In this document: positions 1 through 52,326 of the stretch, in pieces
How positions within the stretch are numbered: the stretch's first letter is position 1
Layout of the letters: each line of letters opens with the position of its first letter
Source of the DNA: Gonapodya sp. JEL0774
Taxonomy: Eukaryota
NCBI GenBank assembly: GCA_027604505.1
Contig: JADIIX010000001.1
Location: forward strand, 1-64,000
Direction of reading: 5' to 3'
DNA length: 64,000 nt
Notes under the pieces: model-generated
The model's database searches: none
What the model saw: the letters and a program-made list of their open reading frames with translations, nothing else
Told to the model about the DNA's origin: nothing
Program-made: the position numbers and the translations under genes

Positions 1-3000
1 CTCTGCTGAGGGCTTTCGGGTCCTCCTGGGTCTGTGGCAGTGAATTGTTGTTGAGCTTCCAGTCAATTGGGCTTCGTGCGCATGGTTTACTCACCTCCTG
101 ACCGATCCCCATATCAGCGTCTTCCTTTTCCAAAAGGAGTGCGAGCTTTTCCTTCGTGATGTTGAAGTCGAAGTCATCAGGCTTGATCAGGGAGACAATC
201 ACGGAGAAGAGTCCGGAAGCGCCCAAAGACACAAGGTTTCCGGCCAGCTATTAAACATGGAAGGCCATCCACCGATATTTAAACATAAAGCAAAGCATAA
301 ATGCGTGACTATACAATGACATACCATGGGGTAGTTGGCTCCAGTCGAGTTCAGGGTGAGCTCTCCGTAGAGTCCCTGCGCCGTTCCCAACCACGATGAA
401 ATTCCGCATACGAAGCCAAAGAAACATGCGCCAACCGCAGCGTAGACATTCTGTTTCCTCCAAGTGAGACTGTCATAATGCGCAACCGGAACGGATGTCA
501 GTAACGAGAACCATCAGTTGGTCAAGAGGACCACGCACGTGAATGCAATCGGAAACACGGCAGGAGACACTATGACGCCCATGAGCAGGTACAAGTATCC
601 GAGAGAGATGCCACTAGAATGACCACGGTAAGATGAGTTATCCCAATCGCAGTTTTAGAGCAAGCTTCCACACTTACATGGTGTGCAGGATGATCCCGAG
701 AACCCCCATGACGACGCCAAAGCCACCAATAATATAGTGGGAGAAACTCACAAGCTGTTTGCCGGTTGCTTCGGGGTTAATGTAGGTGCGATAAACATCG
801 TCTGTAGTGTTCCGAAGAGAGCAATGTTTGGTGTAAGTCTACAACATTCATCAACCAAGAACCCCTTTTATAGACACCCATGAGAACTCACAGGTTATAA
901 TCGACGCGACCGCAATGAGCTCTGCTGACGCTGCACTAGTGACAGCCATAAATACCAATATCAGGATGGCGATCCCACCCCCAGATCCCAAAAGTGCAAC
1001 GGCGGAGTTTGGTGCGACGAGGCCGGCACTAACAGATCCTGGGTCCTGTGACAAAGCAACTTCAGAAACCTGATCCGAACTATCAGTACCTTTTTGCTTC
1101 CACATGGAAACTCACAAGGCGAGCAGGGAAGGTGGGAAAGGCGGCGTTGCTTTCGAGGGCGACACCGGCGAGACCGAGCGTGGTGGCAAGGAAGAAGGGA
1201 ATGGCGAACCAGCAAAGACCTACGGTAACACAGACATGAATATCTTGTTGTGAGTTCTGAGCTTGATTTTCTAAACGACTCACCGCCAACGAGGTAACCC
1301 AGAACGGTGGATGACGGGCGCGCAGCAACAGCGCGCTGCCAGTAAGCTTGGTCGACGAAAACGGTACCGAAGTTACCGACAAGGTTGATGATGCCTGATC
1401 GGGAAAACCATAACGGATGTGTTTCACAATTGAGATAGAATCGAGACATTGTACAATCGACAGCCCGCTCACCGAAGCTGTTGAATCGAGTCAGGATGAG
1501 AGTTGATCGCATATTATGGAGATTGAATAAAAGAAACTGAATATCTCACGCACTCACACTGGCAGGAAAACAGAGACAAGGTGTTAAAAACAGACCGCAA
1601 CCTATCTTGATCGGATGTACAAATGTAGAAACTCACTTAAACCATCCGTGGAAGACATCGTCAGGTAGTTTCCATCCTGATTGTTTGCAACGGGATGAGC
1701 AGCGGCAGCTTTTTGGAGGAGATCGTACTAACCAACGGAACATGAAGTTGTGAGACTCTCCTACGACATAGAAAAATATACACCCACCATCGCCGAGGGG
1801 GATCCGATGAGAGGTGATGACGCGTAAACAACAAATCCGAACATAAGGATAATGACGTAGATAAACACGGTGTGGGAGTAATCAGTGAGGAAGGTGGCTT
1901 TGAGACCTCCAGCGACCTGAACGAGAAAGTGACACGTAAACAACGCCGAGTTCGAAGGAATTTGCGTTTCCCTTTCTCAGAAACTCACCACGTAGACTGT
2001 GACTCCGAGCGGGATCAGCATACACGCGGCGTAAACGTTCATTCCCGTAAGCGACTCAACAACCGCAGCGCCGCCAAGGATGAGCTGGGGCATGATCATT
2101 TGTTGGAAACTATGGTAACGTAGCGAAAAAGGCTTATAAGGTCTAGACATACCATAGCTGTTACGATGGCATTCGTAGCGAGGCTACCAGATGAGATAGG
2201 AGAATGATGTAAATAGCACCCATTGACGAACAGGTCAGGAATGCTCACCCAAAGGCCAAGAAGACAAGGTGGGCTGTCTTCCCGTACCGAACGAGAATAA
2301 TTTCTAGGAATGTGTGAGCGTTGGGAGCTTTGCGTTTCAGCTCGATGGCGAGGACTAATTTGACGGAAAGTGGGCGAACTATCCCTGGAGATCGATCAAG
2401 CAGAGAACGCAAACGTACTCGCAAAGAGAAGCACTTGAACCGTGGCCCCAGAAGCGTACCAGAAGGGACCTGCAAAATAAATGTGGGCTGACACATTCCG
2501 ATCGCGGCTGGAAGAACGCTCCACTTCTTACCGGAAACACCATATTGGTAAGCGACTGTAGAGGATTGAAGGAGAGTTGCTGCCCAAGTCCACGCGCTTA
2601 CAACAGCAGATGCGGTCAGACCCTGCAATGTGGAGAGAACGAGTGAGATCCAACATAGAGAACGTATTCTGAAGCAAAACCATCACTCACGGTTTTGACT
2701 GTTTCCGAAGGGTGGACGAAGATTAATGAAAATGATGAGTTCCTCCCCCTCAATCAAACACAGGTCAATTTCAATCAATGGTCTGACGTACTTGTCCGGC
2801 CGGCCGTCATAAACTGTTCAGATGTTTGCACTTCCCCCAAATACCGCTCTTGAGCCTTAGTGATGAGAGTCATAACTAAATGTGGAGGGTATCATGGAGA
2901 TTGGGGGCGTAACTGAACGCACGGTATCAAACTCATTCCCTCACCGACAGCGAAAAAGGCACCGAATCCGATGACAATGAGCCATCCGACTGCTTGTGAT

Positions 3001-3011
3001 AGGATCGCCAT
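1..3011 (-). CDS. DUR3: Urea active transporter (sodium:solute symporter family), multi-exon, 3' end runs off the window
   Basis: Spliced translation gives [10 protein letters not shown]..., [88 protein letters not shown] and [29 protein letters not shown], all DUR3 signature blocks; canonical GT-AG introns. Confidence 0.95.
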
Positions 3012-3096
3012 TGTGAGAGCGTGTGGGTTGTTGGTGGGTCAAGCGTTAGGAGGGGCAGGTTTGAGAAGGTTCGTCTAAAACAACAAAGCCTCTGGC

Positions 3097-3516
3097 TGAT
3101 AGGGCAAATTATAAAGCGGGGGAGGGGTCGATAAGGAACCAATCAAGGGTCCACACCCCCAAATGCTTGGGTCCTTGGTTGATCCGATTTTTCCAAGGTT
3201 GGGGCACAGCGATAAGGAGAACAGATTAGTATTGCTCGGCAAAGTTGGTGATTAGTGCGTATATAGTCCCCACAACCATCATGACGCAGTTGGCTAAATA
3301 AATTTAGTTTCGGTCGTTTCTCATAACGCACAGATGTGTTCCACATGCCACAGTAACGGATTGCAGTAGGTGAAAAGGAGGCGTAACGGGAGGGCAAGAA
3401 GGAGTGTGGGTGGGAGTTTTCTTTTAGCGCCTCGCAAGTATTCGACTCTCCGATTACAGTGTTACGTGCGGCAGGTGGCCGGCAGCCAAACTTTTGTTGC
3501 GTTATTTTCATTATCT
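3097..3516. promoter_or_regulatory. GATA (GATAA/GATAG) elements upstream of DUR3, candidate nitrogen-regulation sites
   Basis: Identical CGATAAGGA at 3129 and 3210, TGATAG at 3097, TTATCT at 3511; DUR3 is a known GATA-factor (nitrogen catabolite repression) target in yeasts. Confidence 0.4.
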
Positions 3517-3881
3517 ACCGTTAGTTTACATAGGCATTAGTGCAAAGCACTAGCTGCTTGGTTGGGCGTTAGTGCCTGTCACGGCAACGCCTTCCCCGAA
3601 TAGCACATACAGACGGGATTTGAATCCGCGCTCGTTCTTCCAGACTGTTTCACCACTCAACCAAAAAAAAATATGGCACGATCGACAGTCAGATCAAGGC
3701 AAATAATTCGATTCTGCTATAGGATTGTGAATTTACATTTGTAATGATGAAACAGGAATAATTCCGCTCTATCGCACAGCTCGTCAACGTAGGGGTGGTG
3801 GGACGAGGTTCATTATTCGTCCAGTGCAGTCCGCAAAAAAATACCCAGAGAGTGCCTCACAGTAAAACGCTAGCACATATT

Positions 3882-6392
3882 TTACGCTGGGACGCCATCG
3901 ACGGTCATCCCCTCAAAGGACGCCCGATCCACTGATAATTCCTCTAAGATGGTCTCAGCAGTTCTGTCGTCATCATCCAATTTCTGACGCTTTGCAGACT
4001 CTGGCATGTCTTCATCATTGCCAACCTTGCGCGGTCTCCCTCTCGGTCGTGGCGCACGCGGGGAAGGCGAGATCGCCACCACTGCTGACGACCCCTTCGT
4101 TACTGCAAGTGCAGGAACGTACAAGAATTCCGACTCCTGTATTTTGCGCTTTGAAGGAGTTATGCGTGACTTGACAGAAGAGGCCATCCGCACAATGTGC
4201 TGTGTTATGGCTGACGCGTCAGCGGCAGCCCTCGCTGCCTGAGCGGTTGCACTCGCAGCGGCACTCCTCGCCGCATCTGCCTCCAGCTCCGCCAATCGGA
4301 TACGCCCGCCTTTTAATTCTTCCTCTAAAACTGCGTTCTCGGCTCTTGTACGCTCCATATCTGCCTCCAATTCCGCTAACCGCGCTTGCATTGACTCGAT
4401 CGCAGTGCGGGTTTCCTTGGCTTCGTTCTCCCACCATCGCCCTGCTTCCTCTGCAGACTCGACGCGTTCTCTCAAAGCTTGAGCAACACCGTCCACATTA
4501 CCAAGTGCTGCTGCCTCCACCGCCTCTCTCAATCTCGCCACTTCCGCCTCGGCTAACATCCTCGCCTCTTCCGCCTCCATTCGCGCTTCTTCCGCGGCGC
4601 CAGAGTCCAACCTGCCCTTTTCTCGCTCCAGATCAGCCTCCCTCGCGTTCAGCTCCGCATCCCGCTTGGCAACATCCAGATCCCTCATGGCCTGGTCCAG
4701 CTGCTTTTCCAACTCTCCGACATACCGCTCCAGGAATCGGACGTGATTCTTATGCCGCTTGCGGTAGAGCGCCGCAGCAACTCTATTTCGCTCCCTCTTC
4801 TTCGCTCGCTTCAAGGGATCCGCCTTTCCCGACAATGCACCGCCCCCCGCTGAATCACCCACACCTTCTAGCAAATCACCATTCGCAGCGTTCATCTCGT
4901 CCAAGTCACCATCTAAATCCCCTTCCTCGTTATCTCCAAGCTTGATTCCGATGTCGATCGCTTTGAACTCCGCTTCAGAGCGGGTGACAGACTCGGTGCC
5001 CGAAAAGCCCTCCGCAGCGGCTTCTTTGGCCGAGGCCTCTTCGAGTGCAGCCACATCTTCGTCGGTGAAACCGACGGCATTCTGAGCGATTGCTTTAGCA
5101 CGGGCTTTCGCGATGGCTGCAGAGCGGGCAGCGGATTGCACAATCTCGCCAAGGGGTCGAGATGGGAAGCTGGCACTCAAGGCAGACACTTTGCGCGGAT
5201 CGCGGGCACGTGTCGTCGGAGCAGGTTGAACGGATGTATTCGAGGACGCAGGCACGATGGTGTTGGAAGATGCTGAGGGAGTGGAGGAAGGAGAGCTCGA
5301 CTTCAACGGACCGACAGTCGCTGGATGAGCAAGGGCAGCTGGATGATTTGGGGCAAGATAAGTCGGTGGAGGTCTGGCACTGAATGGTCGTGGAGTAGCC
5401 TGCCCGGTTCTCGTCGATGCTCCTCGAAGAGCGATCGAGCCACCGTTTTGGGAGCTGAGGACAGGATTCGTGGAGGGAACGTTGTCGGGACTGGTAGATG
5501 GCAGCAAATTTACAGTGGTGTCAGGAGACGAAGCAGAGTGGAATATCAGGTGCGATTGGGACTCGCAGCTGGCATGGGTGGCTTTCAACGTTCAGTGGTG
5601 AGGTGGGGTCCACCACGCAAAATTCGATGTAACCATACCAGTCGATAATGATGAGGTCATAGTAGTCTGCAGTGGCGTCGGCTTCAGATCGGTACCTGTC
5701 GCGGGTGTCTTGATTCCGTCGGCCGTTACACTTTCTGTCTGGGGAGAGTGGAGTTGAAGCCTGCTGGTGCGCTCCGGCATCCTCCTTCGTCTCAACGATA
5801 CGCTCTCTGAGGGAGCAGAAGCATCAGGAAGTAAGATGGTCGCTTCAGATTCAGACGGAGATGTGACCTCCAGAAGTGGATTCGCGGACCCGTCCGAGGC
5901 ATCGCGTTGGGGATATTGGTGGGGGTTCTGTATGGGTTGCAAGGGCACGAAAGGATGAGATGCAGCGCCATTCACACTTCCATTTGCACTTGTGTGTTGA
6001 GATGAAGTTACGGGAGGAGAAGTTGGGAACTGAATTGGAGTCTTCGGTGTGTTCGGCGGGGACACACAGGGAGAATCCGAGGTGGAGCTGGCAGCTTTAA
6101 TGACGTTGGTGCTGAATTTGATTTTGAGCTTTGGAATAGTCGATGAAGGTATGGTTGACGGAAGTGGGGGTTGATTGGGGAGTGGCGGGGCTATCATGGT
6201 GGAAGTGGCGGTTGACCTTGAAGGTTGCGAAATGTGAGGACTGGTGTCAACGGGAAGCGGCAGCGGTGCCATTGGTTCTATTGGAGGGTTTGTGTCCACA
6301 GTCATGCTCGATGAAGAAGAGATGTCGTCAGCCCGATCCAGTCCATCGCCCATTGTGAGTGGGGGAATGAGACCAGCTGACGATGTAGCCAT
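3882..6392 (-). CDS. bZIP transcription factor with long coiled coil and C-terminal AT-hook (2 exons, intron ~5583-5638)
   Basis: Basic region and zipper KRAKKRERNRVAAALYRKRHKNHVRFLERYVGELEKQL; AT-hook PRPRGRPRK; ORFs 5592-6518 and 3882-5588 join in phase through gtatgg...tgaaag; start codon uncertain. Confidence 0.85.
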
Positions 6393-7072
6393 ATTCCCAG
6401 CCAAGGGTGCTTGACGTGTATCCCTCTGTGATAACAACCGGGTGGATGCCGTTAGCTGTGACAAACTAACCATCTTGAAAGAAAAGACAACATGAAAACA
6501 CCACCCAATCACAGCCACTCACTTTCTCTTTCTTAATCCAGGTTTGTTGGTGCTTGCTTTACTGTCCACGGAGTTCGACGCTGAATCCTCAACAATTGTC
6601 CAGGTGGTGTGTTACGAGAACCGGCAATTGGACGGCCGACTGCGAAAGAGGCCCGGCCTAGCTGACACAGCACAGGTTCTTCAAAGAGGATTAATCAAGA
6701 ACTTTGTTCACTGCAACGATCTGCCGCGTTTGCTGGCTTGATTGGTGGACGGGTTCACGGGTGACTTTACGTCACCACTGGGGAATGCGTCACCAGGGTG
6801 GTGTGGCGATTGCCCAAATAGTAATTTTCACCATATTTTTCTCTCAGAAGTATGCTCAAGGGAAATCACTCGCTGAGCACTACGATCACAAATCGAAACA
6901 TGCACTAAATTAATGGAGCACTCCCACATTTTGCTATTCTCATGAAAGACCAGCCACCAAAAACTAAGACCAATTCGACCACTTACGAAAGTAAACCTCC
7001 AAAATTATCTACAGTACACCAAAATCTGGATCACAACAAAGCAACCAACGAACCACCTCGAGCTGCAGGAGT

Positions 7073-23037: not shown

Positions 23038-24654
23038 CTAAAATTTTAAGTCCAATCCCAAGTCCAAGTTTTCGAAAGTCTGTTCCAGGCCTACACCAAT
23101 CTTAACGTCATCCAAATTGTCAACCAACCTCGCTGCACGTCCTCGAACTTCCTCGTCCTCCGCAAACGTGGCGGTAATTTCAGCAGTGCGTGGAGGATTC
23201 GGCCGAGAGGACCGGGACTTCCGCTCGTTGGGAGATTGATCGCGAGTTCGAGGGCGCTGGTCCTCAGAGACGAGGACAGGGGTAGTCACGGTATCATTGG
23301 GAGCATCTGATTGTGGTTGTTGTTCAACGGCGACATCTTTGGTATGCCTCTCTTTCTCTCCGGGGGAATGCGCTGTCCCCTGAGAGTACTCCTTTCTGTC
23401 AGGATCTTGCGGGTCTTCCTCGTCGTCTTCGTCGTCATCCTCCTCTTCACTCTCCCATTCGTCCACCCATTTTCCGTTCACGAGTTTCAGCGGCTTGGCC
23501 TCCGTGATTTCAGGTTTGAAAGCCGGTCGAAATCTGATGGGCGCCTCGGTGACCAGAGGGACCGCACGAGTGAGGTGCTCTGAAATCCAAGCCGACTCTA
23601 CGTACACGATCAATTCAGGCACGAGAAAGTTGGCGTCGACTGTGGCAGAGGCATCACCAGATGGCACAATGATGGCATCCACGGAAAAATTAGATTGCCA
23701 AACGTTGGACACGTGGCGCCAGTGGCCAACAGACGAACTCTCACTAAAAGCACGAATTTGATCGCAATACGTATTCATCACTTCAACATCAGGCGGCGGT
23801 GAGTCGAGCGCCGGAACTCACGACAGCACCACCAGGGGTCTGCATACAGATGCCCGCAAGATATCCTCTCTGGAAGGAAGCTCACTCTTCGCTCCATCCA
23901 GAGAGTCAGCGACAAAAACAACTCCGGCTAAAGGGGATCGTAAGCTGGGGAGTGCGAAAAGTGCTGTGCGGCACTGTGCGAGTTTACCGACTCTCAGGGT
24001 TTGAGCGGGAAGGGCAACGGCATCCTTATAATTGCTCACCGCTTCGGCTTCAGCTATGACGAGAACATCTGTCAGCGTGGTTTCTTCTTCAAGGTAGTCT
24101 ACCATGGTGAATCATCAGCAACGATGTATGAGTCTGAAGGTGACTGGTCAAAGCCGCACCGCGCAGTCCTTTAGAATCGTTCTCGTCCTTCACTGTAAGA
24201 ACAGCAATGTCTTTGACCATGTTAAGATGTTCTGCAACTATATCCTCCCGAAACTGCGTCAGCCATGGGGGATCTTCACGAGCTAAAATGAGCACGCGCA
24301 ATTTGGGAGCAGGAGGAGCAACGACCGGAGGTGAGGAAGGCACGTCGTCGCTTGAAAGCTCTACCGGAGATGATCCGAGCTGAGGTTCGTCTTCGTGTGA
24401 CATATGTAAGTCAATGGGTATGTCTGTCTCGGAGGGTGCTGGTAGGAGCTCCACAAAAAGATCCATGTTTGCTTCAAGTTTCATCTCGGACGGAATTCTC
24501 ACAAACATCTCCCATGGTATCATCCCTTTTTTTAAGAGTGACACTTCACATGTAATAATGCGATTTTTTTATGTACAAACTCACCAGCTCCAACACCAAA
24601 TTGACGGGGTGCAATAAGAGTCGAGAGTGCATGAAAAATGTGTCTCGATAACAT
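23038..24654 (-). CDS. Hypothetical protein, multi-exon, with acidic C-terminal region
   Basis: ORFs 24089-24544, 23818-24105 and 23038-23781 can be linked by phase-consistent GT-AG introns; no domain recognised; start codon uncertain. Confidence 0.6.
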
Positions 24655-27032: not shown

Positions 27033-29487
27033 ATGAAGCTCCTAACCGCCACCGCCGCTCTAGCCATTCTTTCCTTCGTAGCACCATCCCGAGCTCAGTA
27101 CGTGCAATAGCCGTAGACCCCCCACAGAATGCTCTCTCCGATAACTCATTAGAGTTTTCTCCACCACTTTTCCCCTAAAAGCTGGCTTGAGCGCCGATGT
27201 GGCGCACTGGAGGAATGGCCTCTCGGCAAGGCAACCGCGCTCTTCGTAGGTGCGTGTACCGACTTCGGATGGGTGTTGGAGTGCTCGACATTTGTGGGGC
27301 ACAGAGGCTCATTAACTATGTACATTACCTGTTCCACAACACATTACACCAGCTGACGCGGGTGCATTCTCTGGAACCGGTGAAGATACGTACTACGTCA
27401 AGAATTGTAACGACTGCCAGAAAGTGGGTCCCATTCCTCAATCGTCATGGAGCGCCTCTTCTCAATGTGCACTCGGTCCGAAAGCTCGATCCTGCCTTGA
27501 CGCTTTGTGAGGGCACTATCCACTACGGACATATAATGGGTCAGAAAGTTATCATTGCAGGAACAGGTGTGTCTTCTGCTTGATCACTCCACCTGCATGT
27601 GACGAATGCTTTCTAACTTGTAATCAGGCATCGGCCCACTTGCTGCCACCACTTGCGTTCTTGACTTCATGAACAACTGTGGGATCTACGTGAAACAGGT
27701 CATATGTGAGTTACATGCCGGGCCTTGTGAAGTTTCTGTTGCGCCGGTGTCCTCACTGCTACACGAAACTCCCCCTAAATAACTGTATATGCACTTTAAT
27801 GATATAGACTCGGGAACGTCCGGCTGGAGTGCTTCTGTGGGAGGTATCATTAGTAACGGGACGTGCGACAAAGGCTTGCCGAACCCCAACATCAAGGTGA
27901 GGTTCCGTTTTGGCGTATTTTCAAATGAGGCTTCGTTACGTTCGCGCACTCTCGTTTATTGTTCTGACATTTCCTCTTTAGCCCACCCGTATTGGAGATG
28001 TTTGCGTCGCAACAAATGCCATTAATTGGGACTGCCGCTTGGCCTCGTTTAACCAAACTGCCGGAGGTGAGCGATTTACCAACTGAGAAAACTGAAAGAA
28101 AGCAAAACTAGCTCCCTTTCTAAATCTTCTCACTTGTGGTGATATAGGTTACCCCGATCAGTGCGCAGTTCCCAAGGAGTCGTCTACGATCGACGAGTCG
28201 TTCCTGTTCGGCAAATGCTTCTGGAACAACTTCACGAAGGCGCACACTGATTTTGCAGACGACATTGTAAGCGGTGAGTCCCCGCATCGTTCAAAAGAAT
28301 AGACGTGGGTCGAACGAACAAAGGCATTTATTACGGTGGTTTGGCGATCTAGCGGCCAAGTCTGTTGGCACAAGCAGCTTCCCCAAGCGCTCCAATTTCA
28401 CTGTTGCCCATGAAACGGAGTGGTGGACTCTTCAAGTAAGCCAGTTAGCCAAGTGTGCTTTTTTTGTCGATCAATGTGCTCACCGCTCATCCGTTGACGT
28501 AGAACGAAGCCCTCAACACGACCCTGGTGACTGTGAAGGAAGACGACAAACCTACAGTGTGGGACTACAAGACCTGTGTAGAATCTGACTCTCAGGTGAT
28601 TTGTCAGTTGCGTTCGGGCACAGGGCGAGGTCATCCATTTCTCATTATTGGTCCACACTCTCACTTTCGGTGCACGTCCACAACACCATGTGACACACCG
28701 TACCAACAGTTCTGTAAGTACAAACCACCGACACGTTCCCGGAAATTGTCGAATCTCATGTGTACCACGTAAATTTTAAAGTCTGGTCCGGCGCACCATG
28801 GGACACGCTTACCCGCCAGTACACGGCGCAAATTCTGCAAGGGGCGGTCCCCTCCGTGAGTCCCAATGCCACCGAAGGAGATGCCATTGTCGTCAGCGCG
28901 TGAGTGTTCGGGTTATCGTCACCCGGAAACCATTAAAACTTACGCTTCTACGAAACTCCCCAGCATGGAGGCGATCGGACTTGCTGCCGCCATGACCTCT
29001 TACGCGAAGCTCGCTGACGGCAAGGCGCGTCCTCCCATTCCATTCGTGTACGTACGCGGAAACTCCGATTACGTGCACCAACCAGTAATATACAACGCCA
29101 CGGCCAAGATCTGGCAACAAAATGGAGAGGTAGAGGTACGTAAGCATGAGATCGATGCATTGGGTGCCGGTGGACGGTGGTGGGCGAAGGGCTAACCTGC
29201 TTTGCTCTAATATGCCTTTTCTAATCTTTTTTCTTTCTTTCCTTTTTCTTCCGCCGCACCTTGTTGCTCTCTCGCGCTTAGGACGATTTTGCTCATGGCT
29301 ACGCCTAGTGAGTATCGTGAATTCTTTCTTGCTGCTGCACGGGAATTGGATAACGTAGCATTCCCCTCTGTTCCTTACCGTCGAAAGTGCCATTGCCTCC
29401 TACTCGACGGTCGTTCTTTCTTACCTCAAATCGAACTGTTTGACTTCTTCTTACGGGAACTGTACTTTCACTGTCGCGTACCCTTAA
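27033..29487 (+). CDS. Secreted nucleoside phosphorylase/MTA-SAH nucleosidase-fold protein (purine nucleoside permease NUP-like), many exons
   Basis: Signal peptide MKLLTATAALAILSFVAPSRA; motifs KVIIAGTGIGPLAATTCV, VIYSGTSG, RIGDVCVATNAINWDC, DSQFFWSG, VSAMEAIGLAAA and PFVYVRGNSDY; ends YAIASYSTVVLSYL...AYP*. Confidence 0.75.
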
Positions 29488-33902: not shown

Positions 33903-35616
33903 ATGACTGAACCCACCTTGATGGACGAGGAACGGTATGGAATAACGTCTGTTGTGGAGGAGAATGGCGCCAAGACGTACAAATGTCTTGAATGTGGGAA
34001 AAAGCTTTTGAGGTACGGGATTTCGTACTTCCAAATCAATGAGATTATTGGCATTCAACTTCCTGTACTGCAGCAAGCGTGCATCGAACTGGAGGGATCA
34101 CATCAAAACTCACGACAAAGCTCGGGAGCGACTGAAGTGCCCGTTTTGCCCCTCCCAGTTTCTTAGGATGGGGTACTGTTTAAATGCCGTCTTCGTTGAT
34201 CACGCCGGACAACACATTGACTGACTCCAACATAGTGATTACCGTCGACATTACAATCTGCATATGGGGAAAAGTGAACTGGAGTGCAATGTTTGCAGAA
34301 AGCTTTTTTCGAGGCGAGTCATAGTGGACCCAATGATGTTTGCAACTTGTGGTTCGATGTTCACCGATAGAACCATCAAATCCACACCGACAGACCTGAC
34401 CACTTTACTCGACATACAAAACGCGGTTGTGCCAGTATGCGGACTGCACCGTTTGGTATCAATGGCAGTTCCCATATCAGTGGAGCCCACCCACAAATCG
34501 CTTTCCTAACACCGCCATTCAACGCTCAAGACACTCCCGTGGCCGTCGTTTCTCCTATTTTGGCTGCGCAACCTTCCATAGGTGTTCTGTCTCCCATGCT
34601 TGCTGCCCAACACGCAGTACTTTCTCCAATGCTGGTTGCTCAGCATTCGATTTCTACACCTTTTCTCGCAACTCAGCATCCTGGCATATCACCAGTTATC
34701 TTGGCGCAACATGCAATGCTTTCGCCAATGCTGGCGGCGCAAAATGCTATGACGTCGCCCATGCTCCTTCCTCAACAACTCATAACGGGGGTTTCGCCAA
34801 TGATGACCGCGCACGGCGCTTTGATGTCACCCATGCTCCTTCCTCAACAGCCCATGACGGGGGTTTCACCAATGATGTTAGCGCAGGTTTCACCCCAAAA
34901 CGTTTCCCCGATGCTAGGTGCTCATACAGTCGTGAATTCTTCCATTAATCTTGCTGTGGCACAGTAAGTTGTCCCGTTATGCTCATGCGATTTTGAGTCA
35001 ATATGTATGCTTCCTCTGTCACAGGGACAGTAGCAATTCGGGCTTACTCATGGTGCAACAAGATAACCTCATTCCGTCCTCCCTTGATAGTGGTGCTGCG
35101 TTGCCACCTGACACGCACACGGTGACCCCGCCTCAAGCGACACCCATCACAACTCCGATATTCACATCTGAATTCATGTCAACATATGCATCTGTGCCAC
35201 GTCGCATGCCTTTCAACACTTATGGACTTGTCTCGGAAGGCAACTGCATGCAAACACCTCCAATGACGCCAGTCTCTGTGGCCGGAGGAACAGGAGTTGT
35301 ACTCGCACCTATACGGCAGTTCCATGCGCCCTTATCCACGGGAATATTTGCGCCGTCCACGTACTTTGTTCCCGACATGGAGGTCCTCCCTTCGCCTGCT
35401 CTCGACGCCACCAGTCCCACCTTGGTTGCGACACTCCCCCATCAGTTTCTGCCACAACACTTCGTGGGACCGCAGCTCGCGAAACCTGCGACGTCGGGTG
35501 AATCACCCTCTTTTCCATTAGCGATGGGATCGCGGCAGTTTGAAGACATTTGCTTGACTGACCCTGTGGATGTAAATTGGGCGGCTGACACGGAATTGCT
35601 TGAAGGTGATGAATAG
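33903..35616 (+). CDS. C2H2 zinc-finger transcription factor (two C2H2 plus one C2HC finger) with Ser-Pro repeat region
   Basis: CLECGKKLLSKRASNWRDHIKTH, CPFCPSQFLRMGDYRRHYNLH and CNVCRKLFSRPDHFTRHTKRGC after splicing (third intron is GC-AG). Confidence 0.85.
34540..34920 (+). repeat. Coding tandem repeat of ~11-aa SP(M/I)L units
   Basis: VVSPILAAQ / VLSPMLAAQ / VLSPMLVAQ / MLSPMLAAQ / MTSPMLLPQQ / LMSPMLLPQQ; near-identical DNA copies of cccatgctccttcctcaaca...gggggtttcnccaatgatg. Confidence 0.8.
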
Positions 35617-43085: not shown

Positions 43086-46000
43086 ATGTCAATATTTCTC
43101 TCAAGCTGGAATGTTTTGATCTGCTTGTCTATATTTTTATGTCTTGCGATTTTAGCGATGGCGGCCGTGGAAGGGGCAGTAGAAGGTGGGTTGTGGTGGG
43201 AAAAGTTCCAGGAGGCAGAAACTTCCGTCTTGAGTGCAATCCACCTCTCTGTCGACTCGAATGTTACAAAATACGTCACGATTCACTCACTTCGTGATTT
43301 TGGCACCCCATTTTGCTTCTTGAACTCATCCAGATCACGTCGAGAAACCTGGAATTTCTGCTGGGAAGCAATTGAGACTGCCCAAGCATTTTGACTGGGA
43401 GTCGTCCCCTCTGTATGAACGCAGAGTACAACCATGTATAGGGGAGCTCGCGCCGTGTGGAGAATGGTGCATGCCGAGGGGTGGTCAATGTTGCACCGCA
43501 TCTGGAAACTGGTGGTGAGACATCGCAATGAAACATTTCACTGTTCGGGCAAGTTTTGGTATTTGATCAATCGAATAGGTGTCCGCCTGATACGCAGTGC
43601 ACTTCCAATGGGTGCTCTGGGTGTACCTCAACTTGCGAAGGGAGATGTGAAACGTAAGGACGGATCGTGTACCTCACCAATGTGAACTGTAGCCTGATCT
43701 AAAGCTATGCTTCACATATGCAGACAATCGGGATTTCTGGTATCATATTTGGATTGTGGTAGAGTGAGCAATCAATCAATCCAATGAGCGACAATGTCAG
43801 AATTCTAATTTCTTTGATGCGTTACTTAGTGTGGTAATCAGTGGTGAGGGTCAGATGATGATAGAGCGTACTGGAAGTATCAAACTTTGTGCTTTCTTTT
43901 GCAGCTGGGATCCTCCGAACGGGGCTGGCTACTGCGCCTTGGGTGTCTGCAATTTTGGTGAGTTATGCAGAATATGCGTTCAGCGGAGCTACCGACCCTC
44001 AAACACTGAATGAATCTCTGGGCAGCTTGTGATGACGGTTTTTCTTACAACGGCACGGCTTGCGTGAGGGGTCTGTACTATTCGTCAACAATCACTTGTG
44101 AGTGAGTCCGATAGAACGTCTCAAGCGCGCCTGTGATTTGCATTCCTCCTTCTCATTCTTCAGCTGACTTGGTGACGAAGATTGGCTCTCCTGCCGCGAC
44201 AGCCACATTATCGGTCGGTGTAGGACTTGAATTTAACTCACCTACTGGAGCCGCGAATAACAATACACAGTGAGTTAACCTTGAAACAAGACACTTGAAC
44301 CCACAACGCTCAACGCTGTCTCATATGTACATATTCAGAGATACTTCTTGGTCCAACTCCTTCCCCGTTGCGGCAGTTTCGGGAGGCCTTGCTGGTGCTG
44401 TTGTAATACTTTGCGGAACTCTCCTTTGTGTCTGGTCAATACGTCGCCGCAAAGGAAAAGTAAAAACTCCAGAGTTGGCACTGCTTCCAATTGCTGTCAT
44501 TGATGCTGACCCGCGAAAGTCGGAGATTGATTCAAATGATCGGCATTCACTGGTAGATTTATCGGCTTTAGAAGACGCTGATGCTGAGGGAATAGCTGGC
44601 GAAGACTCCAAGTCCGAATCAACGTGAGTGAGCCCCTCGTGGAACTACTAGTATCCTGTCGTCTGGGTTCCTGCGTCGGTTCTGGTTGTGATGCCCGCAA
44701 ATGTCTAACCAGAGCCTTTGCCTAAAGCAACGCGCGAACCTTGTCTTCCTCTGCGACATTTGTATACACTGCAACCAAGCACAATCGAGATAACAGTGCA
44801 CCACAATCAGATCTGGTGAGCCGGACAGCAAGCCAGTCAAGTACCGGGACATCTCTTCCTTCATGGGGTAGAATGTTGGGAGAGGCTGGCCGGTCTTCCT
44901 CAATCGCTCTGAGCAGTGTCACTGTAGGGAGATTGTCGAGGGACACGACGCGCAGAGAGGGTGTCTTCAGAGCGTTGTCGTCGAAGACCACCAATACGAC
45001 GACCACAACTGTGACCACTGCGAGAGTTTCTATTGACAGCGGAGTGAGTACTTGCTAGTAGCGGTGATCCAAGTTACGCAGCATAGTGACTGAAATAGTT
45101 TCGCCCTGTCATACTTGTTGCCGAAAAGGTGCATGTAAGTATCAAAGAGCTCCAGGTCTCTCAATCCAATCTCACCGAGTCCGCTCTGATATGTTCCATT
45201 CGCCGCTTTTCGCATCAGTGGCTGTACAGCCGGATAGCTAACCCAAAAATGAAATCGGAAAAACAATTTGTTGAGTACTCGGGACCACCTCTCATTGCGA
45301 TCGCCAAGGTAGGGATTATATCCAGCACTGCGGTGTTTAAACTCACTTAAAGATTCCTGTTGGACTAGCATGACTCAAAATCTGCAGATGAAGTGTCAGT
45401 CTCTCCAGGAAATATCATCACAATGAGCACGGTGTATAAAGACGGGTGGGGGGTCGGGACAAGTGGGTGACGTCGGTGCGAAGGTTTTGTGTGGTTAGTG
45501 AATTTGAACCACCTTGGTGTTACGTCTTGGAATCTATGGGTATCCTCGCTGGTGGCACTCTAAGACGTGAGCGCTGATATGATTTTTCGGAATGGATTTG
45601 GGTAACAAACTCAATAATTCAATGATCTTCAGCTTGACACCGGCATGCACGGCTTTTTCCCCTTAGATTGCCTCCAATTAACTTCGTTTTTAAGTTCCAA
45701 CGCTGTCACTTCTCCACTCCAGCCTCCCACATCACTGCCAACCCCTACCAGGGTGGAATCCAGTTCCCCGCTCGCCGCCGCCAGACTTGCCGCTGACGCG
45801 CCTCTTCGGTCCCGCCCGACCTTTTCTGCGCACCAGAAAGGTCGCATTAGTCGGCAGAATGATACCAAGCCAGTTTTGAAACCTTACGATTTTCGTACGA
45901 GGGGTGGTTCGTCCTCAAATGCCTCACATTCGGTGCTCGAGCGGATTAGAGGTGAGGCCGATAATGCACATATTTCAATGGTGAGTAACAGGGCATTATT

Positions 46001-46255
46001 ACGTATCAATGAACCTGCTCATTTCCTTAACACCGGATTGCCGATTTCCATGGCCTGCAGCAGCATTCACATCTGCGTGTCCAGATTGTGGGTGTCCCCG
46101 AACAGGTTGTCACTTGGGGTGGAGTGGATGCGCAGACAATTGATGAAGAAACCGTTGGAGCTTCCCCTGCTCCTTCCTCCTCTTCTCAAGACCGACGCAG
46201 CAGTCATGCTGTTGTTAATCAGCGAAGGACGATCCAACGACAAGAGACATGGTAG
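43086..46255 (+). CDS. Receptor-like protein: signal peptide, Cys-rich (STIG1/PriA-like) ectodomain, single TM, cytosolic SH3
   Basis: MSIFLSSWNVLICLSIFLCLAILAMA; DCGRCGNQCWDPPNGAGYCALGVCNFACDDGFSYNGTAC; TM VAAVSGGLAGAVVILCGTLLCVWSI-RRRK; SH3 IAIAKHDSKSADEVSVSPGNIITMSTVYKDGWGVGTNLDTGMHGFFPLDCL, which needs the 2-nt exon at 45565-45566. Confidence 0.75.
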
Positions 46256-46397
46256 AATTAATTCCTTTTGCAGTATATCACACTTATGTATGAACGTGCG
46301 TGTCCCAGTTTTGCATTGTATTAATCATTTTACAGTGAGTTTGTTCGTGGTTGAACTCATGAACGAGTATTTGAATCCACCAAACTCTGCACTCTCA

Positions 46398-48318
46398 ATG
46401 GCGATGTCAAGACCTCACCAACATGGCTCTGTGCAAATAGGAGGTCGCCTTTTTGCCTGCGTTAAGTCGCTTCATGGTCAAGGTTGTTCAGATCCAAAGT
46501 GCTCCAGCTCCCATGATGCGGCTGCTCTCGCGGCGGTTCCACTTTGTCGCTTTACCTTACCTGCGAACGGAAGTGAGCTCCTTCGAGTTTTGACGCCTAT
46601 GAAGTATTCACTGACTTCGGTTGATTTGCAACCTCCACTTCGGCGTGCCTTCACTTGATCTTGAAGCCTGCAATTTTGGAAACTCTTGCTAGTGAGTAAG
46701 AAGAACCGTGAAAGACGCGGAGAGCAAGAGCTCTCTTTTGCCAGGAATGAACTTTTCCGCTCGGTTGCCCAAGCTACGCTCACGGTTCCCCATGCCCATC
46801 CTGCGGCTTGAGAATCCTCCATCCCTTCAAAAGGGATGAGTCCGAGCGTGGGTACAACCTCATCCATGTAAGATTTTGCATTCCTTTCGAAGCGATAAGG
46901 ATTTGTGGTCGTCTAGGTCATTTAAAAACATGCCCCGTCACAACAACATCGTTCGCAACTCGCTCCGATTCGAGCATCTTTGAACCGCATAGACTTCGCG
47001 TCGACGCAACTGAGTTTCTTCCCTCCATTCCTCCTGTCCACGACGATACTTTGTCGCACGGTTTCAAAGGAAAGCAACCCCCCGTGGAGACACAGGCACC
47101 CGCATGCGAACCCAATCCAGATCCGGAACTAATTGAGTGTTCCATTTGCTTTGAGAGTGTGATGCGGCAGGGAAGAATGTTTGGATTGCTCGCCTCGTGC
47201 TCCCATCCGTTCTGCCTTGACTGGTGAGTTTGTTGCTCGACCTGCAATTCGAATCGTACCGTGACACTACCTCAGCATAAGATCTTGGCGGAAAACAAGC
47301 GCGGAAAAGACTGCCATTGATCAGTTGGCTATCCGTTCATGCCCAATCTGTCGTCAAGTCAGCTACTTTCTGGTTCCATCAAAGACGTGGCCAACTACGG
47401 ATACTGCAAAAACCCAGATCTTTGATTCCTACAAAGCTTCTCGCATGCGAATTCCTTGCAAACATTTTGAACGGTCGGGGTTTCGGCGATGCCCATTCGG
47501 CGACGAGTGCTTTTACTCGCATATGGCTCCAGATGGAACAGTGCCAACTTTGGGAGCCGCCCAAGTACGCGTGGATGGCACTCACCGCCGACTTCAGGGC
47601 CGTGCCAACCGTGGCCTCTCAAGAAACGCACCAGATATACTCAGGGGTTTGAGAGAGTACTTGGGTGGCGATTATGAAGGCGACGAGGACTTTTGGTCGC
47701 GGATTCGGAACTCACTGAGAGAGATGAACGATGATGATTTTGATGAGGATGAAGAATATGACGAGGATTACGACGATGATGAAGCAGAGACAGATGAGGA
47801 GGATGAATGGTCCGGGGAGGAAGTTGAAGAAGATCTAGTGAGTCGGATGCACAGAAAACTTTTTGTCCTTGGCGATAGTGCAACGCAGTGTTTTACGTGG
47901 TTGACAGGATGATGAGGATGATGAATACTCAAGTCCAATGTTTCAACCATGGAGGACACATCCCCAAGTTGTACTCAGAAATGCGGTTGCAGGCGAGATA
48001 GAGTCTCTTGATTCTCTGATGCAAGCTCGTGAGTTCCTGACAGAGGCTGGCCTATCGGACGGAGATCCAGACATGCGTGATATTGTCGCGCGCATAAACG
48101 CACTTCGCCTGAACTCGACATCTCCGGCCGTTAACAATCCACGCGAGCCAGAAACTGCAACAGATCCACCCCCCCATGGATTTGTGTCTGCTCGACCGCA
48201 TTCTCAACCCATTTTCGCTACATCACACCGACTTACACTTCCCGCTCCCCTGAATCCTTCCTCTCTGAGAGAGCAAACAGATTCAACATCTGGTGCAAGA
48301 CAGGTTCGTCATTTTTAA
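46398..48318 (+). CDS. MKRN: Makorin-family RING/CCCH E3 ubiquitin ligase
   Basis: CCCH CRFTLPANGTCNFGNSCYYAH; Cys-His motif CPSCGLRILHP..HLKTC; RING CSICFESV..FGLLASCSHPFCLDCIRSWR..CPICR; C-terminal CCCH CKHFERSGFRRCPFGDECFYSH. Confidence 0.92.
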
Positions 48319-48755
48319 CGGGGATCTGGTGGGATATGAGCATAATTGAACATACAGAGGGAGTTTGAAATTCAATCCAGCATTTCGTTTCCCCATATTT
48401 CCTGCCATCGCGCCCGAACGTAAGATAAAGGAGGATTGTTGAGAATACACAAACAGTTTCGAAGCTAAACAGTATATATGGCAGTCCCCCCCGCAAGTTC
48501 AATACATATTGAATAGTGCAAGATAGGGAAAACGAAGAAAACACCATTTCAGGGAAGTCTGCAAGTATCCAATCAGTGGTATACATCTGTCTAAGGAGGA
48601 AGCAAAGAGCTTTTCGAGTTACGTACAGTCGCAAATTGTGGGCGCCCATTCATTCCGCGCATCCATACATCATCTCAGCCGGACACCCCAGTCACAAGCT
48701 GACGGATGCATCCGCTTCTATTAGCTTGATTTTGTCCACCCAGATTCTCACACCG

Positions 48756-51167
48756 ATGATGGGAACGCGGGCAGGAGTGGCTGCTGGCGCGGAGGGACCT
48801 CTTATATCGCCAACGCCAATTTTGGGGGAGCTACAAAGAACTTCGAGTGGCGATGTTAGTCCGAAAACTCCAATAATTGAAGTACCTACATCGGCACTAG
48901 TTCCACTCTCTCCTTTGCAGCCTCCGTGTGAAGGACAATTGGCTTCGCTTGGCAACCTGGACTCTCGAACATATCCAAGTGAAAACCCGACCTTACATTC
49001 TCTCGCCGACTCTTCGCCAAAGCAGTTGGATAGTCTACCGGAGAGAATTGCTGACGGAGATCACTGGCAGCGCTTGGAAAAGGACTACCAGCACACCATC
49101 CGCATCCTTCGAGCTCTGCTCGAGGACGCAACCAGCTCCTCTGCCTCCGCCGATGGCCCGCGAAGTACCCTCAACACCAATGCGCACTCTAGGCTAAGTT
49201 CAGGTTCCGTACGGACAGGCTCGTCGTCTGCTATGAGCTCGGGCACTGGTGACGAGGACGATCCGGCTCAATCATCTAGGAGCTGGTTTTCGATTTGGGG
49301 GTCTTCTACTGAGGACCCACAAGTCCGCGAGCTTACACGACAGCTGCGTAGGTCACGTGCGGAATGTGCAGAGCTTGCCCTCGAGTCGGTTCACCTTCAG
49401 TCGGTGGTCGAGAACAAGGAGCGAGAGTTGGCGACTGTGCGAGGGCTGCTCGACGAGGCTCGACGCGTAAAGGAAGAAGCGACCAGCCACATTGTGGCAT
49501 TCAAAGAAGCAGCAGATGAGGGCTGGAGGGAAGTAAACGAATTGCGCCATCGATGCCTAGAAGCCGAGCAAGCCAGAGCTCAAATCGCGGCAGCTTGGGA
49601 GGCTGAAGCGAAAATTCGTCGTACAGCCGAGGAAAAGCAGTCGAAATCTGCTCTTGAGCTGGGACGCATAGAGCGGGATCAGAGAAATCTGGCAGAGTTG
49701 AACGCTAAGCTGGCGCAACGCATGCGTGAACTCGAAACTGCATCCCAGGTTCCATTGGCTGTTCCCCCAGCACAAACACCCGTTAACTCCATGCTCTCTA
49801 TCCTATCCAACGTTGCCACCATCGTGCCTGGGTCCATACCCAAAGAACCCGCTCTGGCGCCACCATCTGCATCTGCATCTCCATCTTTGGACGTGGAAGC
49901 AATTACCGGGAACCTCCGCGCTACGATTGCGACGCTCCGATCGGAGCTGGACATATTCAAACGGCGGGCTGTTGCTGACGCGGGGGCGCGCATTTCGGTT
50001 TTCGAACGTGACGAAGGTCGAGCGAAGGAGCGGGCACTCAAGGAGGAACTTGCAGCAGCAATCGAGCGCGCGGATGAATGGGAGCGTCGGTGGCGGGACA
50101 CAGGTGGGCTGGGTGCTGAGGTCGCACTCGAACGAATACGTGACGCACTGGTAGAATGCTTTCCTCGAGATGTGGAGCAGTCATCCGCAGACTCAGTGAT
50201 TTCTGTTGAACCGCTCATCGCGCATATTCGGCGAGCCGGCGCGCGGTGGGCGAGGGCGACTGTGGAACTTACGGAGTCAGCTCGAACACATGATGCGCAA
50301 CATGCCAAGATTGAAGAGTTGATGGGGCGATCGCCAGTGCCACAGCCTCTGCGAGTGCCACCTCTCAGGTCCATTAACTCTCTTCCACCGAGCCTCGAGG
50401 CGAGTCAGTCGTCTGTTGGCGTGCCTCCATCATCTTCTGGAAGACGTTCGAGCGGTGCATCAATCATCTCCATGGGATGTAGTTGGGACCGTGGAAGCAG
50501 TGGCAGAATTGCAGAAGGCCCTCCTCCATCCGAAGAAGTTCCGCACGCACTCATAACTCGCCGAGAAGGCAGTAACTTCCTTGCTCGCACAGGATCTTCC
50601 ACATCCGTTTCGAGTGTCGGACCCTCCCCCTTTCCACCGTCTCCCTCCCTCTCGGCCGCTCCGTTCCCCTATGCGCCATCATCATATTCTCCGACACCCA
50701 CGGACCTCGAGTTTGATCCACCGAGACTGGCCACAGCAATGCGTGACCTTTCGAACCGCTACGCCCTTTTGCAACAGCACTCGCAAAGAGCGGACCAAAA
50801 ACTACAAGGACAGATTCGTGCAAATCGAGAGCTCAAACGACTCATCGTAGAGGGCACAGTTGGTCGACGTAAGGAAGAGGGGGATGCAATACTGAAACTC
50901 GCTGATACTGTGAGCGAACTAGAACGGGTGAAGGCGGACTTGGTGCAGGAGAGGATACGTGTGAGGGAGCTTGAGTTTGTAGTTGGTGAGATGGCTGATG
51001 CGCGAGCTGACGACGGAGAAGATGAGAATACCCCTACAGAAATCGGGGCAGATGCTGCACATGAACAAAGGTCAGAACGGGCGGCCAGTGTAGTGGGAAC
51101 ACCCAGCGCAGTTGTAGAGCTTGCGAGCATCGTAATGCGTCGAGATCAAAACAATACGTTACTCTAG
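48756..51167 (+). CDS. Hypothetical coiled-coil protein, intronless
   Basis: Single ORF of about 800 aa from the first ATG, with several heptad coiled-coil segments separated by Ser/Pro-rich linkers. Confidence 0.8.
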   Translation: MMGTRAGVAAGAEGPLISPTPILGELQRTSSGDVSPKTPIIEVPTSALVPLSPLQPPCEGQLASLGNLDSRTYPSENPTLHSLADSSPKQLDSLPERIADGDHWQRLEKDYQHTIRILRALLEDATSSSASADGPRSTLNTNAHSRLSSGSVRTGSSSAMSSGTGDEDDPAQSSRSWFSIWGSSTEDPQVRELTRQLRRSRAECAELALESVHLQSVVENKERELATVRGLLDEARRVKEEATSHIVAFKEAADEGWREVNELRHRCLEAEQARAQIAAAWEAEAKIRRTAEEKQSKSALELGRIERDQRNLAELNAKLAQRMRELETASQVPLAVPPAQTPVNSMLSILSNVATIVPGSIPKEPALAPPSASASPSLDVEAITGNLRATIATLRSELDIFKRRAVADAGARISVFERDEGRAKERALKEELAAAIERADEWERRWRDTGGLGAEVALERIRDALVECFPRDVEQSSADSVISVEPLIAHIRRAGARWARATVELTESARTHDAQHAKIEELMGRSPVPQPLRVPPLRSINSLPPSLEASQSSVGVPPSSSGRRSSGASIISMGCSWDRGSSGRIAEGPPPSEEVPHALITRREGSNFLARTGSSTSVSSVGPSPFPPSPSLSAAPFPYAPSSYSPTPTDLEFDPPRLATAMRDLSNRYALLQQHSQRADQKLQGQIRANRELKRLIVEGTVGRRKEEGDAILKLADTVSELERVKADLVQERIRVRELEFVVGEMADARADDGEDENTPTEIGADAAHEQRSERAASVVGTPSAVVELASIVMRRDQNNTLL

Positions 51168-51246
51168 ATTCATTCAGCATAAGTGTATCCATTAAAGTAA
51201 TTATATTGTGTTTCAGCGCGGAAACTACGAGAAAGTGAGCGCAGCT

Positions 51247-52326
51247 CTAAAACAAATCGAGTACCGCGAGTAGAGCCGCCCAGGTGTAACCCAAAAACGA
51301 GAAGACTGCGAATGCGAGTGTAGCTTGAAGTTTCGAACATTCAGAATTTCCGGTGATTCCTGAGCAGATTGATGTCACGGGACTGTAGGCGCCCATGAGG
51401 GCAATCCAAAAGATCCAGAATACAACGAGGACTGAACAGATACAACCGACAAAAGCCCAGCACACGGAGTCAACTCAATACAGGGTACGTGAGTCCCAAA
51501 TACAACTCACAGGCAGCAAGTGCTATGGACACGTAGCGCTCGCTCTTGAGAATATTGTTTGCAAAGCCTGCGATCTGTGCACGACTTTTCTGTGAGCAAC
51601 ACGAATACACATGAAACCCTCTGTTATATGCGTACCTTCTCTTGCAAAACTATGAAGATGAAACCAATGTGAGCAGTACACGATGCTAGGGGGAACGTTC
51701 GACAGGTGTGAGAACTCACGTTCAAAGCGGAGCCAATACTGGGCTGCGAAGACCATGCCCAGAATCCAACCCATCAAACCCACAAACACTGCAAAGCCAA
51801 CCTAAAGTCCATAGCAATGCTAGACAGATCAGAAGAACGGTTCAGGTCCCTGACTGCACATGAAAGGCTCACCTCCGATGGCTTGATTGACGTTGCAGCA
51901 GCACAAACAAACACAATGAAGGAACAAAAGGCGAGGATCGTCCAAGTTATTGCCCATGCTAGGCGTGACGTAGCTTTAGCGAGCCACGGATAATCCCAAG
52001 GCCTGGTGGTCATCCCATAGTCTGGAGGCGGAGTAGAATCTTTTGGGTCGGAGAGCAAAGCAAATAGAACCATGAATTTTGTTATGCCGTTCCGCAAAAC
52101 AGAAAATTCACGATTCCCCGGGAAAATGATGGAGGAAAGACCGAGATTCCTGCGAGGATGACCGTCTGGGAACCGCGCTATCTATCAACTGAATGGATCT
52201 TGACTTTGATATTACTGAGTTCCATTCAACTGCGACTGACGGTTGCCTGCTATGATCCCGACTCCAACAAGCACTCCTGAGACACCCACATCCACCTTCT
52301 CCAGCATATCTATAACTTTCTTGCAT
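51247..52326 (-). CDS. MARVEL-like four-transmembrane protein (start uncertain)
   Basis: Four hydrophobic helices after splicing: LAWAITWTILAFCSFIVFVCAA, VGFAVFVGLMGWILGMVFAA, IALAAFLVVFWIFWIALMGA and CSKLQATLAFAVFSFLGYTW; C...C-x3-QAxxAF pattern. Confidence 0.75.

What the first reader, a model, noticed from the sequence alone, without database searches (positions are those of the whole stretch)
1473..51649. Window-wide extreme microexon architecture, suggesting a lineage-level splicing mode
Five unrelated genes in 64 kb need internal exons of 1, 2, 4, 5, 8, 9, 14, 14 and 18 nt; a 6-nt candidate and an ATG-only coding exon also occur. Each is bounded by AG and GT and flanked by short introns of roughly 45-115 nt. 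Most are not multiples of 3, so they look constitutive, unlike the frame-preserving regulated microexons of animals. This suggests exon length is almost unconstrained here (pure intron definition) and that automated annotation of this genome may be systematically wrong.
Basis: inference. Interest (0 to 1): 0.8.

Follow-up and report, generated by a model that had tools for sequence, protein, structure and literature searches.

The report
Tiny exons in an intron-rich fungus
Five genes of this intron-rich aquatic fungus can only spell their conserved proteins through predicted exons as short as one to eighteen bases, which the public gene models partly missed; such tiny exons are already known in mushrooms and plants and are likely the by-product of many short introns rather than a new way of splicing.

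Summary
The exons exist at the stated sizes, each with AG/GT ends and 46-114-nt flanking introns. Homologous proteins require seven of the nine: urea transporter DUR3 1, 5 and 8 nt; a nucleoside-permease-like gene 4 nt; an LRR-TM-SH3 gene 18 and 9 nt; and, less firmly, a 2-nt SH3 exon. Both 14-nt exons, the 6-nt and the ATG-only exon have in-frame rivals. No RNA could be laid on them. Public models labelled Gonapodya sp. missed 3 of 4 testable microexons. Introns are short (108 of 110 at most 200 nt), as in fungi generally. Exons of 15 nt or less (9 of 95) match random intron placement (9.6 expected), but 19-50-nt exons are depleted (6 vs 16.7), so length is not unconstrained. Coprinopsis, of similar intron density, has RNA-proven 1- and 2-nt exons. 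This window's rate is higher (5 of 16 modelled genes vs 9%), but it was picked for that trait and no genome was available. The scan has noted similar patterns in other fungal genomes. Verdict: real; new member of a known kind.

The parts
95..3011 (-). DUR3-family urea/proton symporter gene, 19 exons modelled, 3' end runs off the window; hosts the 8-, 1- and 5-nt exons
   Evidence: PF00474; PDB DUR3 E=9e-132; model aligns without internal gap to P0002
2691..2698 (-). 8-nt internal exon (introns 93 and 68 nt); supplies the conserved I-K-T before G-L-T-A-S-A
   Evidence: best of 4 in-frame paths, 117.4 vs 86.8 bits; skipping truncates at 152 aa; present in public model P0001
1558..1558 (-). 1-nt internal exon (T), middle base of the Ile codon in the G-L-I-F-G-I-I-N stretch (introns 78 and 80 nt)
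   Evidence: best of 8 in-frame paths, 126.1 vs 109.1 bits for skipping 1+5; 77 of 77 intronless homologs with the motif keep the length; missed by P0001
1473..1477 (-). 5-nt internal exon adjacent to the 1-nt exon (introns 80 and 78 nt); completes I, F and begins G
   Evidence: missed by P0001
6471..6473 (-). candidate 3-nt exon consisting of ATG, between a putative 49-nt 5'-UTR intron and a 45-nt intron of a bZIP-like gene; unproven, an in-frame ATG lies 12 codons downstream
   Evidence: site scores 10.1/7.3/6.4/6.3; translation; no homolog test
19358..21891 (-). LRR-TM-SH3 gene, 11 exons modelled
   Evidence: ortholog P0013
19856..19873 (-). 18-nt internal exon (phase 0), SH3 n-Src loop ending in D-G
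   Evidence: gap-free match to ortholog P0013; 73.8 vs 50.2 bits without it
19764..19772 (-). 9-nt internal exon (phase 0) carrying the conserved SH3 tryptophan
   Evidence: gap-free match to P0013; 73.8 vs 57.3 bits without it
27033..29487 (+). secreted nucleoside-permease/phosphorylase-like gene, 15 exons modelled
   Evidence: model aligns to P0011 with no gap beyond the signal peptide
28710..28713 (+). 4-nt internal exon (introns 114 and 68 nt)
   Evidence: orthologs P0011 and P0012 read F-F-W here; retention of the upstream intron inserts 38 aa, skipping truncates, public model P0010 inserts 22 intronic residues
43086..46255 (+). Cys-rich-TM-SH3 gene, 16 exons modelled; no ortholog found
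   Evidence: SH3_9 E=0.0023 for one exon; search blank
43830..43843 (+). 14-nt internal exon in the Cys-rich region; a 2-nt version (43842-43843) and a single-intron path are also stop-free
   Evidence: shuffle P=0.07 on site strength; no homolog
45129..45134 (+). 6-nt candidate exon; skipping or a 36-nt version (acceptor 45099) also keep the frame; unresolved
45565..45566 (+). 2-nt internal exon (weak AAG acceptor, introns 102 and 66 nt) completing an Asn codon in the SH3 domain
   Evidence: 36.3 bits vs 22.8, 21.7, 16.7 for three rivals against 9 related SH3 domains; best of 27 paths
51247..52013 (-). four-TM MARVEL-like gene, 5 exons modelled (family assignment is a lead only)
   Evidence: Atlas score 0.86, PF01284 on 13% of members
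51636..51649 (-). 14-nt internal exon (introns 70 and 46 nt); a single 152-nt intron to acceptor 51567 also keeps the frame
   Evidence: (P=0.023); no homolog

Best explanation
These are predicted constitutive microexons that likely arise because the spliceosome recognises each short intron (median 70 nt) as a unit, so two introns can lie 1-18 bases apart in an intron-dense fungal genome. Shown here: the AG/GT-bounded segments exist, their splice sites score like those of ordinary exons, and seven of them supply residues that homologs keep. Inferred: they are always included; each flanking intron is defined across itself and the two are removed one after the other, so that after the first removal the microexon is part of a longer exon; their number follows from intron density, with no dedicated microexon regulator; gene predictors miss them, giving faulty public models.
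For: Homology: DUR3; 4 nt; SH3. Splice sites of microexons no different from 92 other introns (donor P=0.54, acceptor P=0.43) and flanking intron length no different (78 vs 70 nt, P=0.38). 108 of 110 introns at most 200 nt. Counts match random intron placement: 2 nt or less 2 vs 1.35, 9 nt or less 7 vs 5.9, 15 nt or less 9 vs 9.6; same in 9 family-anchored genes (4 vs 4.25 at 9 nt or less). Density 3.57 introns/kb CDS vs 3.34 computed for Coprinopsis, which has 13 1-nt and 57 2-nt exons (PMC12230235). G. prolifera is the most intron-dense of 263 fungi, 4.5/kb (PMC8476143). Intron definition proposed for fungi (PMC2397502); consecutive removal shown in plants (PMC8831610).
Against: Random placement fails at 19-50 nt (6 vs 16.7, P=0.0005), so the undepleted 1-9-nt class stands out against its neighbours (7 of 16 exons of 50 nt or less, P=0.035, post hoc). 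Rates exceed Coprinopsis: 5 of 16 modelled genes (5 of about 21 in all) vs 8.6%, P=0.009-0.03, and 2 exons of 2 nt or less vs 0.12-0.13 expected, P=0.007, though the window was selected for this trait. All gene models are by hand; five gene regions were not modelled. No transcript was seen.
Confidence: 0.72

Rival explanations
1. Gonapodya has a genuinely higher microexon load than other fungi: a separate class of 1-18-nt exons, set off by a trough at 19-50 nt, kept by a lineage-level feature of its spliceosome or made by intron gain next to existing introns.
For: Trough at 19-50 nt with no deficit at 1-9 nt; per-gene rate about 3-fold and rate at 2 nt or less about 15-fold above Coprinopsis; relaxed 3' signals (17 of 110 AAG acceptors, CTRAY in 21 of 110).
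Against: One window chosen because it shows the trait; 10 exons in all; microexon splice sites and flanking introns are unremarkable; Coprinopsis counts may be under-detected; similar dense windows were noted by this scan in other fungal genomes (unchecked).
Confidence: 0.2
2. The segments are chance AG..GT motifs; the real transcripts skip them or retain an intron, as the public models assume.
For: The motif alone is common (42 hits; over 100 looser hits on both strands); public models P0001 and P0010 read otherwise; in-frame alternatives exist for the 14-, 14-, 6- and 2-nt cases.
Against: The public readings delete 2 residues that 77 of 77 intronless homologs keep or insert 22 residues absent from two orthologs; shuffles reproduce the needed peptide in 0.1-1.1%. 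Remains open only for the four exons without homolog.
Confidence: 0.04
3. They are regulated, alternatively skipped microexons as in animal neurons.
For: The 18-, 9- and 6-nt exons are frame-neutral, and skipping 1+5 nt together keeps the frame.
Against: Skipping removes the SH3 tryptophan or cuts a conserved DUR3 segment; 7 of 10 shift the frame; flanking introns are short; exon skipping is 0.5% of alternative events in Coprinopsis.
Confidence: 0.04

Closest known systems
Internal microexons of Coprinopsis cinerea (long-read annotation, PMC12230235; passages read)
   Same: Fungus with short introns at similar density (3.34 vs 3.57 per kb CDS); 1,165 genes (~9%) with an internal exon of 15 nt or less, 13 of 1 nt and 57 of 2 nt; omission often gives a premature stop; overlooked by automatic annotators.
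   Different: RNA-proven and genome-wide there; here a zoosporic lineage, homology only, and a nominally higher rate in one selected window.
1-nt exon of Fusarium CYP621A (PMC12940212; first third of the text read)
   Same: Single base forming the middle of a codon in a conserved motif, inferred from an intronless homolog, flanked by short introns.
   Different: Confirmed there by SRA reads and 20 orthologs; here the 1-nt exon is directly followed by a 5-nt exon, so three introns fall within two codons.
Plant microexons incl. APC11 and VPS55 1-nt exons (PMC8831610, passages; PMC4674806 listing only)
   Same: About half not multiples of three, widely misannotated, adjacent pairs occur (5 and 12 nt in rice), flanking introns removed consecutively.
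   Different: Found in 0.6-2.6% of expressed plant genes, with stronger intronic signals; no stronger sites or longer introns seen here.
P450 microexons of Phanerochaete chrysosporium (PMC1184071, passages)
   Same: 2-10-aa exons among 45-55-nt introns in a fungus.
   Different: One gene family; here five unrelated genes.
SRRM4/nSR100-regulated neural microexons of animals (named; properties recalled)
   Same: Size range 3-27 nt.
   Different: Those are mostly frame-preserving, regulated cassette exons in long introns; these shift the frame at the random rate and sit between 46-114-nt introns.

Membership tests
Constitutive fungal/plant microexons | Internal exon of 15 nt or less bounded by AG and GT | tested here: met
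   9 exons of 1-14 nt plus one of 18 nt in the models
Constitutive fungal/plant microexons | Encodes residues conserved in homologs; omission breaks the frame or a motif | tested here: met
   7 of the 9 listed exons; not shown for both 14-nt exons and the 6-nt candidate
Constitutive fungal/plant microexons | Inclusion in mature mRNA shown by junction reads | not testable with these tools
   no RNA holder listed
Constitutive fungal/plant microexons | Often missing from automatic annotation | tested here: met
   3 of 4 testable exons missed in P0001 and P0010; only 2 public models of this organism were retrieved
Intron-definition splicing | Introns shorter than about 200 nt | tested here: met
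   108 of 110, median 70 nt; threshold from PMC2397502
Intron-definition splicing | Errors give intron retention rather than exon skipping | not testable with these tools
   needs RNA or splice-site mutants
Animal regulated (SRRM4-type) microexons | Enriched for multiples of three | tested here: not met
   3 of 10 are multiples of 3, the random share
Animal regulated (SRRM4-type) microexons | Dedicated regulator and tissue-specific skipping | not testable with these tools
   no genome and no RNA
Distinct lineage-level splicing mode | Genome-wide microexon rate above other intron-rich fungi | tested here: inconclusive
   5 of 16 modelled genes vs 8.6% (P=0.009), but a selected window
Distinct lineage-level splicing mode | Exon length unconstrained (random intron spacing at all sizes) | tested here: not met
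   19-50 nt: 6 vs 16.7, P=0.0005; 51-110 nt: 38 vs 22

The most novel reading that the evidence does not exclude
Gonapodya, the most intron-dense fungal lineage reported, carries the heaviest microexon load in fungi (a quarter to a third of genes, hundreds of 1-2-nt exons genome-wide) as a separate size class divided from ordinary exons by a 19-50-nt gap, which would map the footprint at which two neighbouring spliceosomes clash and would make its public proteomes wrong at thousands of sites.
Probability: 0.2. Interest if true: 0.6.

Novelty: new member of a known kind. Interest (0 to 1): 0.33.

Why it matters
Practically, it shows that deposited protein models of this zoosporic fungus are wrong at microexons (3 of 4 tested), which affects phylogenomics and domain counts. 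The DUR3 run of three introns within two codons is a compact test substrate for how a spliceosome handles 1-nt exons. If the high rate and the 19-50-nt trough held genome-wide, the lineage would be a natural system for measuring exon-size limits under intron definition. As it stands, it extends a trait known from mushrooms, Fusarium and plants to an early-diverging fungus.

Tried and rejected
No whole genome is held, so no genome-wide rate. RNA run search for 1-3100: no RNA holder listed; no evidence either way. Homolog search with a Cys-rich-TM-SH3 exon: none of 1265 candidates scored. Metagenome scan for intron-bearing DUR3 relatives: all 80 kept loci were uninterrupted between the two motifs, useful as length markers but silent on intron age. 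Pfam and PDB searches of single SH3 half-exons gave only weak hits (E 0.002-1.9); one query was in the wrong frame. Rejected candidates: 14 nt at 24040-24053 lies in a continuous frame (read); prefoldin ATG at 59007-59009 is the end of a 15-nt coding exon. In one search the per-gene binomial used 4 genes instead of 5 and one CDS length was wrong; both were corrected. PMC3990503 and PMC4739763 passages held nothing relevant. Literature searches listed no paper on microexons in chytrids or Gonapodya; the library lacks most subscription papers, and supplements were not read.

Full report
Setting. The window is eukaryotic, 51% GC, with about 21 gene regions. An exon of the first gene is 100% identical to public protein P0001 and one of the gene at 27-29 kb to P0010; their source labels both Gonapodya sp., a zoosporic fungus. 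No whole genome and no RNA run were available, so everything rests on the window, homologous proteins and shuffles.

Gene models. I modelled 16 genes by hand from splice-site lists and checked each for an open frame: 110 introns, 95 internal exons, 3.57 introns per kb of CDS. Five regions (about 7.0-9.8, 22.9-24.8, 29.9-33.1, 52.8-54.0 and 59.3-60.9 kb) were not modelled. Introns have a median of 70 nt, 108 of 110 are at most 200 nt, GTGAGT is the commonest donor (33), and acceptors are CAG 59, TAG 34, AAG 17.

DUR3 (1, 5, 8 nt). The model aligns to chytrid P0002 without an internal gap. All 77 of 80 intronless metagenomic homologs that carry the motif keep eight residues from G to N where the 1- and 5-nt exons fall; 72 of the 77 have F-G, as do P0002-P0008. 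Of 8 stop-free splice paths the 1+5 path scores best on homology (126.1 bits vs 109.1 for skipping both) and on splice signals; the 8-nt path scores 117.4 vs 86.8 among 4. Shuffled introns yield the needed peptide in 0.1% of 2000 trials each. The public model P0001 has the 8-nt exon but skips 1+5, leaving a two-residue gap also seen against the solved DUR3 structure; it has a further error unrelated to microexons and is partial.

4-nt exon. The upstream 114-nt intron is stop-free in frame, so frame alone does not decide. Two G. prolifera proteins (P0011, P0012) read exactly as the microexon model; retention inserts 38 residues, skipping truncates at 305 aa, and the public model P0010 inserts 22 intronic residues while agreeing everywhere else.

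SH3 genes. The ortholog P0013 matches the 18+9 model without a gap; against a profile of 9 related SH3 domains (which includes P0013's) it scores 73.8 bits vs 46-57 for the skipped forms. The 9-nt exon carries the SH3 tryptophan, so these two are frame-neutral yet needed. For the second SH3 gene no ortholog was found; the 2-nt exon gives 36.3 bits vs 16.7-22.8 for three rivals, though its acceptor is among the weakest. The 14-nt exon of this gene could be 2 nt, the 6-nt one could be skipped or be 36 nt, and the MARVEL-like 14-nt exon has an in-frame single-intron rival. The ATG-only exon at 6471-6473 has four good sites but an in-frame ATG follows 12 codons later.

Is it a special mode? Microexon donors, acceptors and flanking intron lengths do not differ from the other 92 introns (P=0.54, 0.43, 0.38). 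Seven of 10 are not multiples of three, the share of all internal exons (61 of 95). Placing each gene's introns at random gives 1.35 exons of 2 nt or less (2 seen), 5.9 of 9 nt or less (7 seen) and 9.6 of 15 nt or less (9 seen); nine family-anchored genes alone give the same picture. So there is no lower floor. But spacing is not random overall: 6 exons of 19-50 nt vs 16.7 expected (P=0.0005) and 38 of 51-110 nt vs 22. Against my reading, the 1-9-nt class is thus relatively rich (P=0.035, post hoc), and rates exceed Coprinopsis: 5 of 16 modelled genes, or 5 of about 21, vs 8.6% (P=0.009-0.03), and 2 exons of 2 nt or less vs 0.12-0.13 expected from my estimate of its internal exon count (P=0.007). 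The window was handed over because it shows this trait, so these P values are inflated and cannot establish a lineage rate.

Mechanism. Most likely each short intron is recognised across itself; two spliceosomes cannot sit on both sides of a 1-5-nt exon, so the introns are removed in turn, and after the first removal the microexon is part of a long exon. This is inference from intron sizes and from PMC2397502 (passages) and PMC8831610 (passages); it was not tested here.

Comparison. PMC12230235 (passages; preprint passages) reports 1,165 Coprinopsis genes with an internal exon of 15 nt or less, 13 of 1 nt and 57 of 2 nt. PMC12940212 (first of three parts) reports a read-confirmed 1-nt exon in Fusarium. 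PMC1184071 (passages) reports P450 microexons in Phanerochaete. PMC8476143 (passages) names G. prolifera the most intron-dense of 263 fungi. Searches listed no paper on microexons in chytrids or Gonapodya, so the lineage record may be new; supplements were not read. Earlier notes of this scan describe like patterns in other fungal genomes (unchecked); none exists for this genome. Domain names such as bZIP, GATA, makorin, GDI, Derlin, prefoldin, PP2C and HACL1 are recalled from the translations, not from a call.

Verdict. Observation confirmed; interpretation partly supported. Real constitutive-type microexons and real annotation errors, best read as the short tail of an intron-dense, short-intron fungal genome; a new member of a known kind. 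Interest 0.33; a genome-wide excess with a size gap (probability about 0.2) would raise it to about 0.6.

Noticed in passing
window-wide, e.g. acceptors before 27182, 27485, 28782, 29388: AAG is used at 17 of 110 modelled acceptors (15%), four of them in the gene whose model aligns gap-free to ortholog P0011; CTRAY is found near the 3' end of only 21 of 110 introns (13.9 by chance). 3' splice signals look relaxed.
   Followed up: partly
window-wide: Internal exons of 19-50 nt are depleted (6 vs 16.7; 3 vs 11.8 in nine family-anchored genes) while 1-9-nt exons are not.
   Followed up: partly
34314-34393 (+): A GC-AG intron of 80 nt is needed to complete the third C2H2-type zinc finger.
   Followed up: partly
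1549-1557 (-): Two competing GT donors lie 4 and 8 nt downstream of the donor of the 1-nt exon (scores 8.1 and 7.9 vs 10.1); their use would give 5- or 9-nt exons, a likely source of mis-splicing.
   Followed up: no
2355-2531 (-) and 95-560 (-): Public model P0001 also misreads ordinary exons 4-6 of DUR3 and stops about 105 residues short of what the window encodes.
   Followed up: yes
19358-21891 and 27033-29487: Orthologs P0013 and P0011 have accession numbers two apart on contigs of the same length, suggesting conserved gene order with G. prolifera.
   Followed up: no
19358-21891 (-) and 43086-46255 (+): Two unrelated-ectodomain receptors (LRR; Cys-rich) share a TM plus cytoplasmic SH3 layout, and both SH3 domains are cut by microexons next to the D-G-W motif, at different positions.
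   Followed up: partly
54195-54197 (+): The GDI-like gene begins with an ATG-only coding segment followed by a 189-nt intron; it is probably the end of a longer 5'-UTR exon.
   Followed up: no
58380-58783 (-): The longest modelled intron (404 nt, prefoldin-4-like gene) stands far outside the size mode; no good internal split was found.
   Followed up: partly
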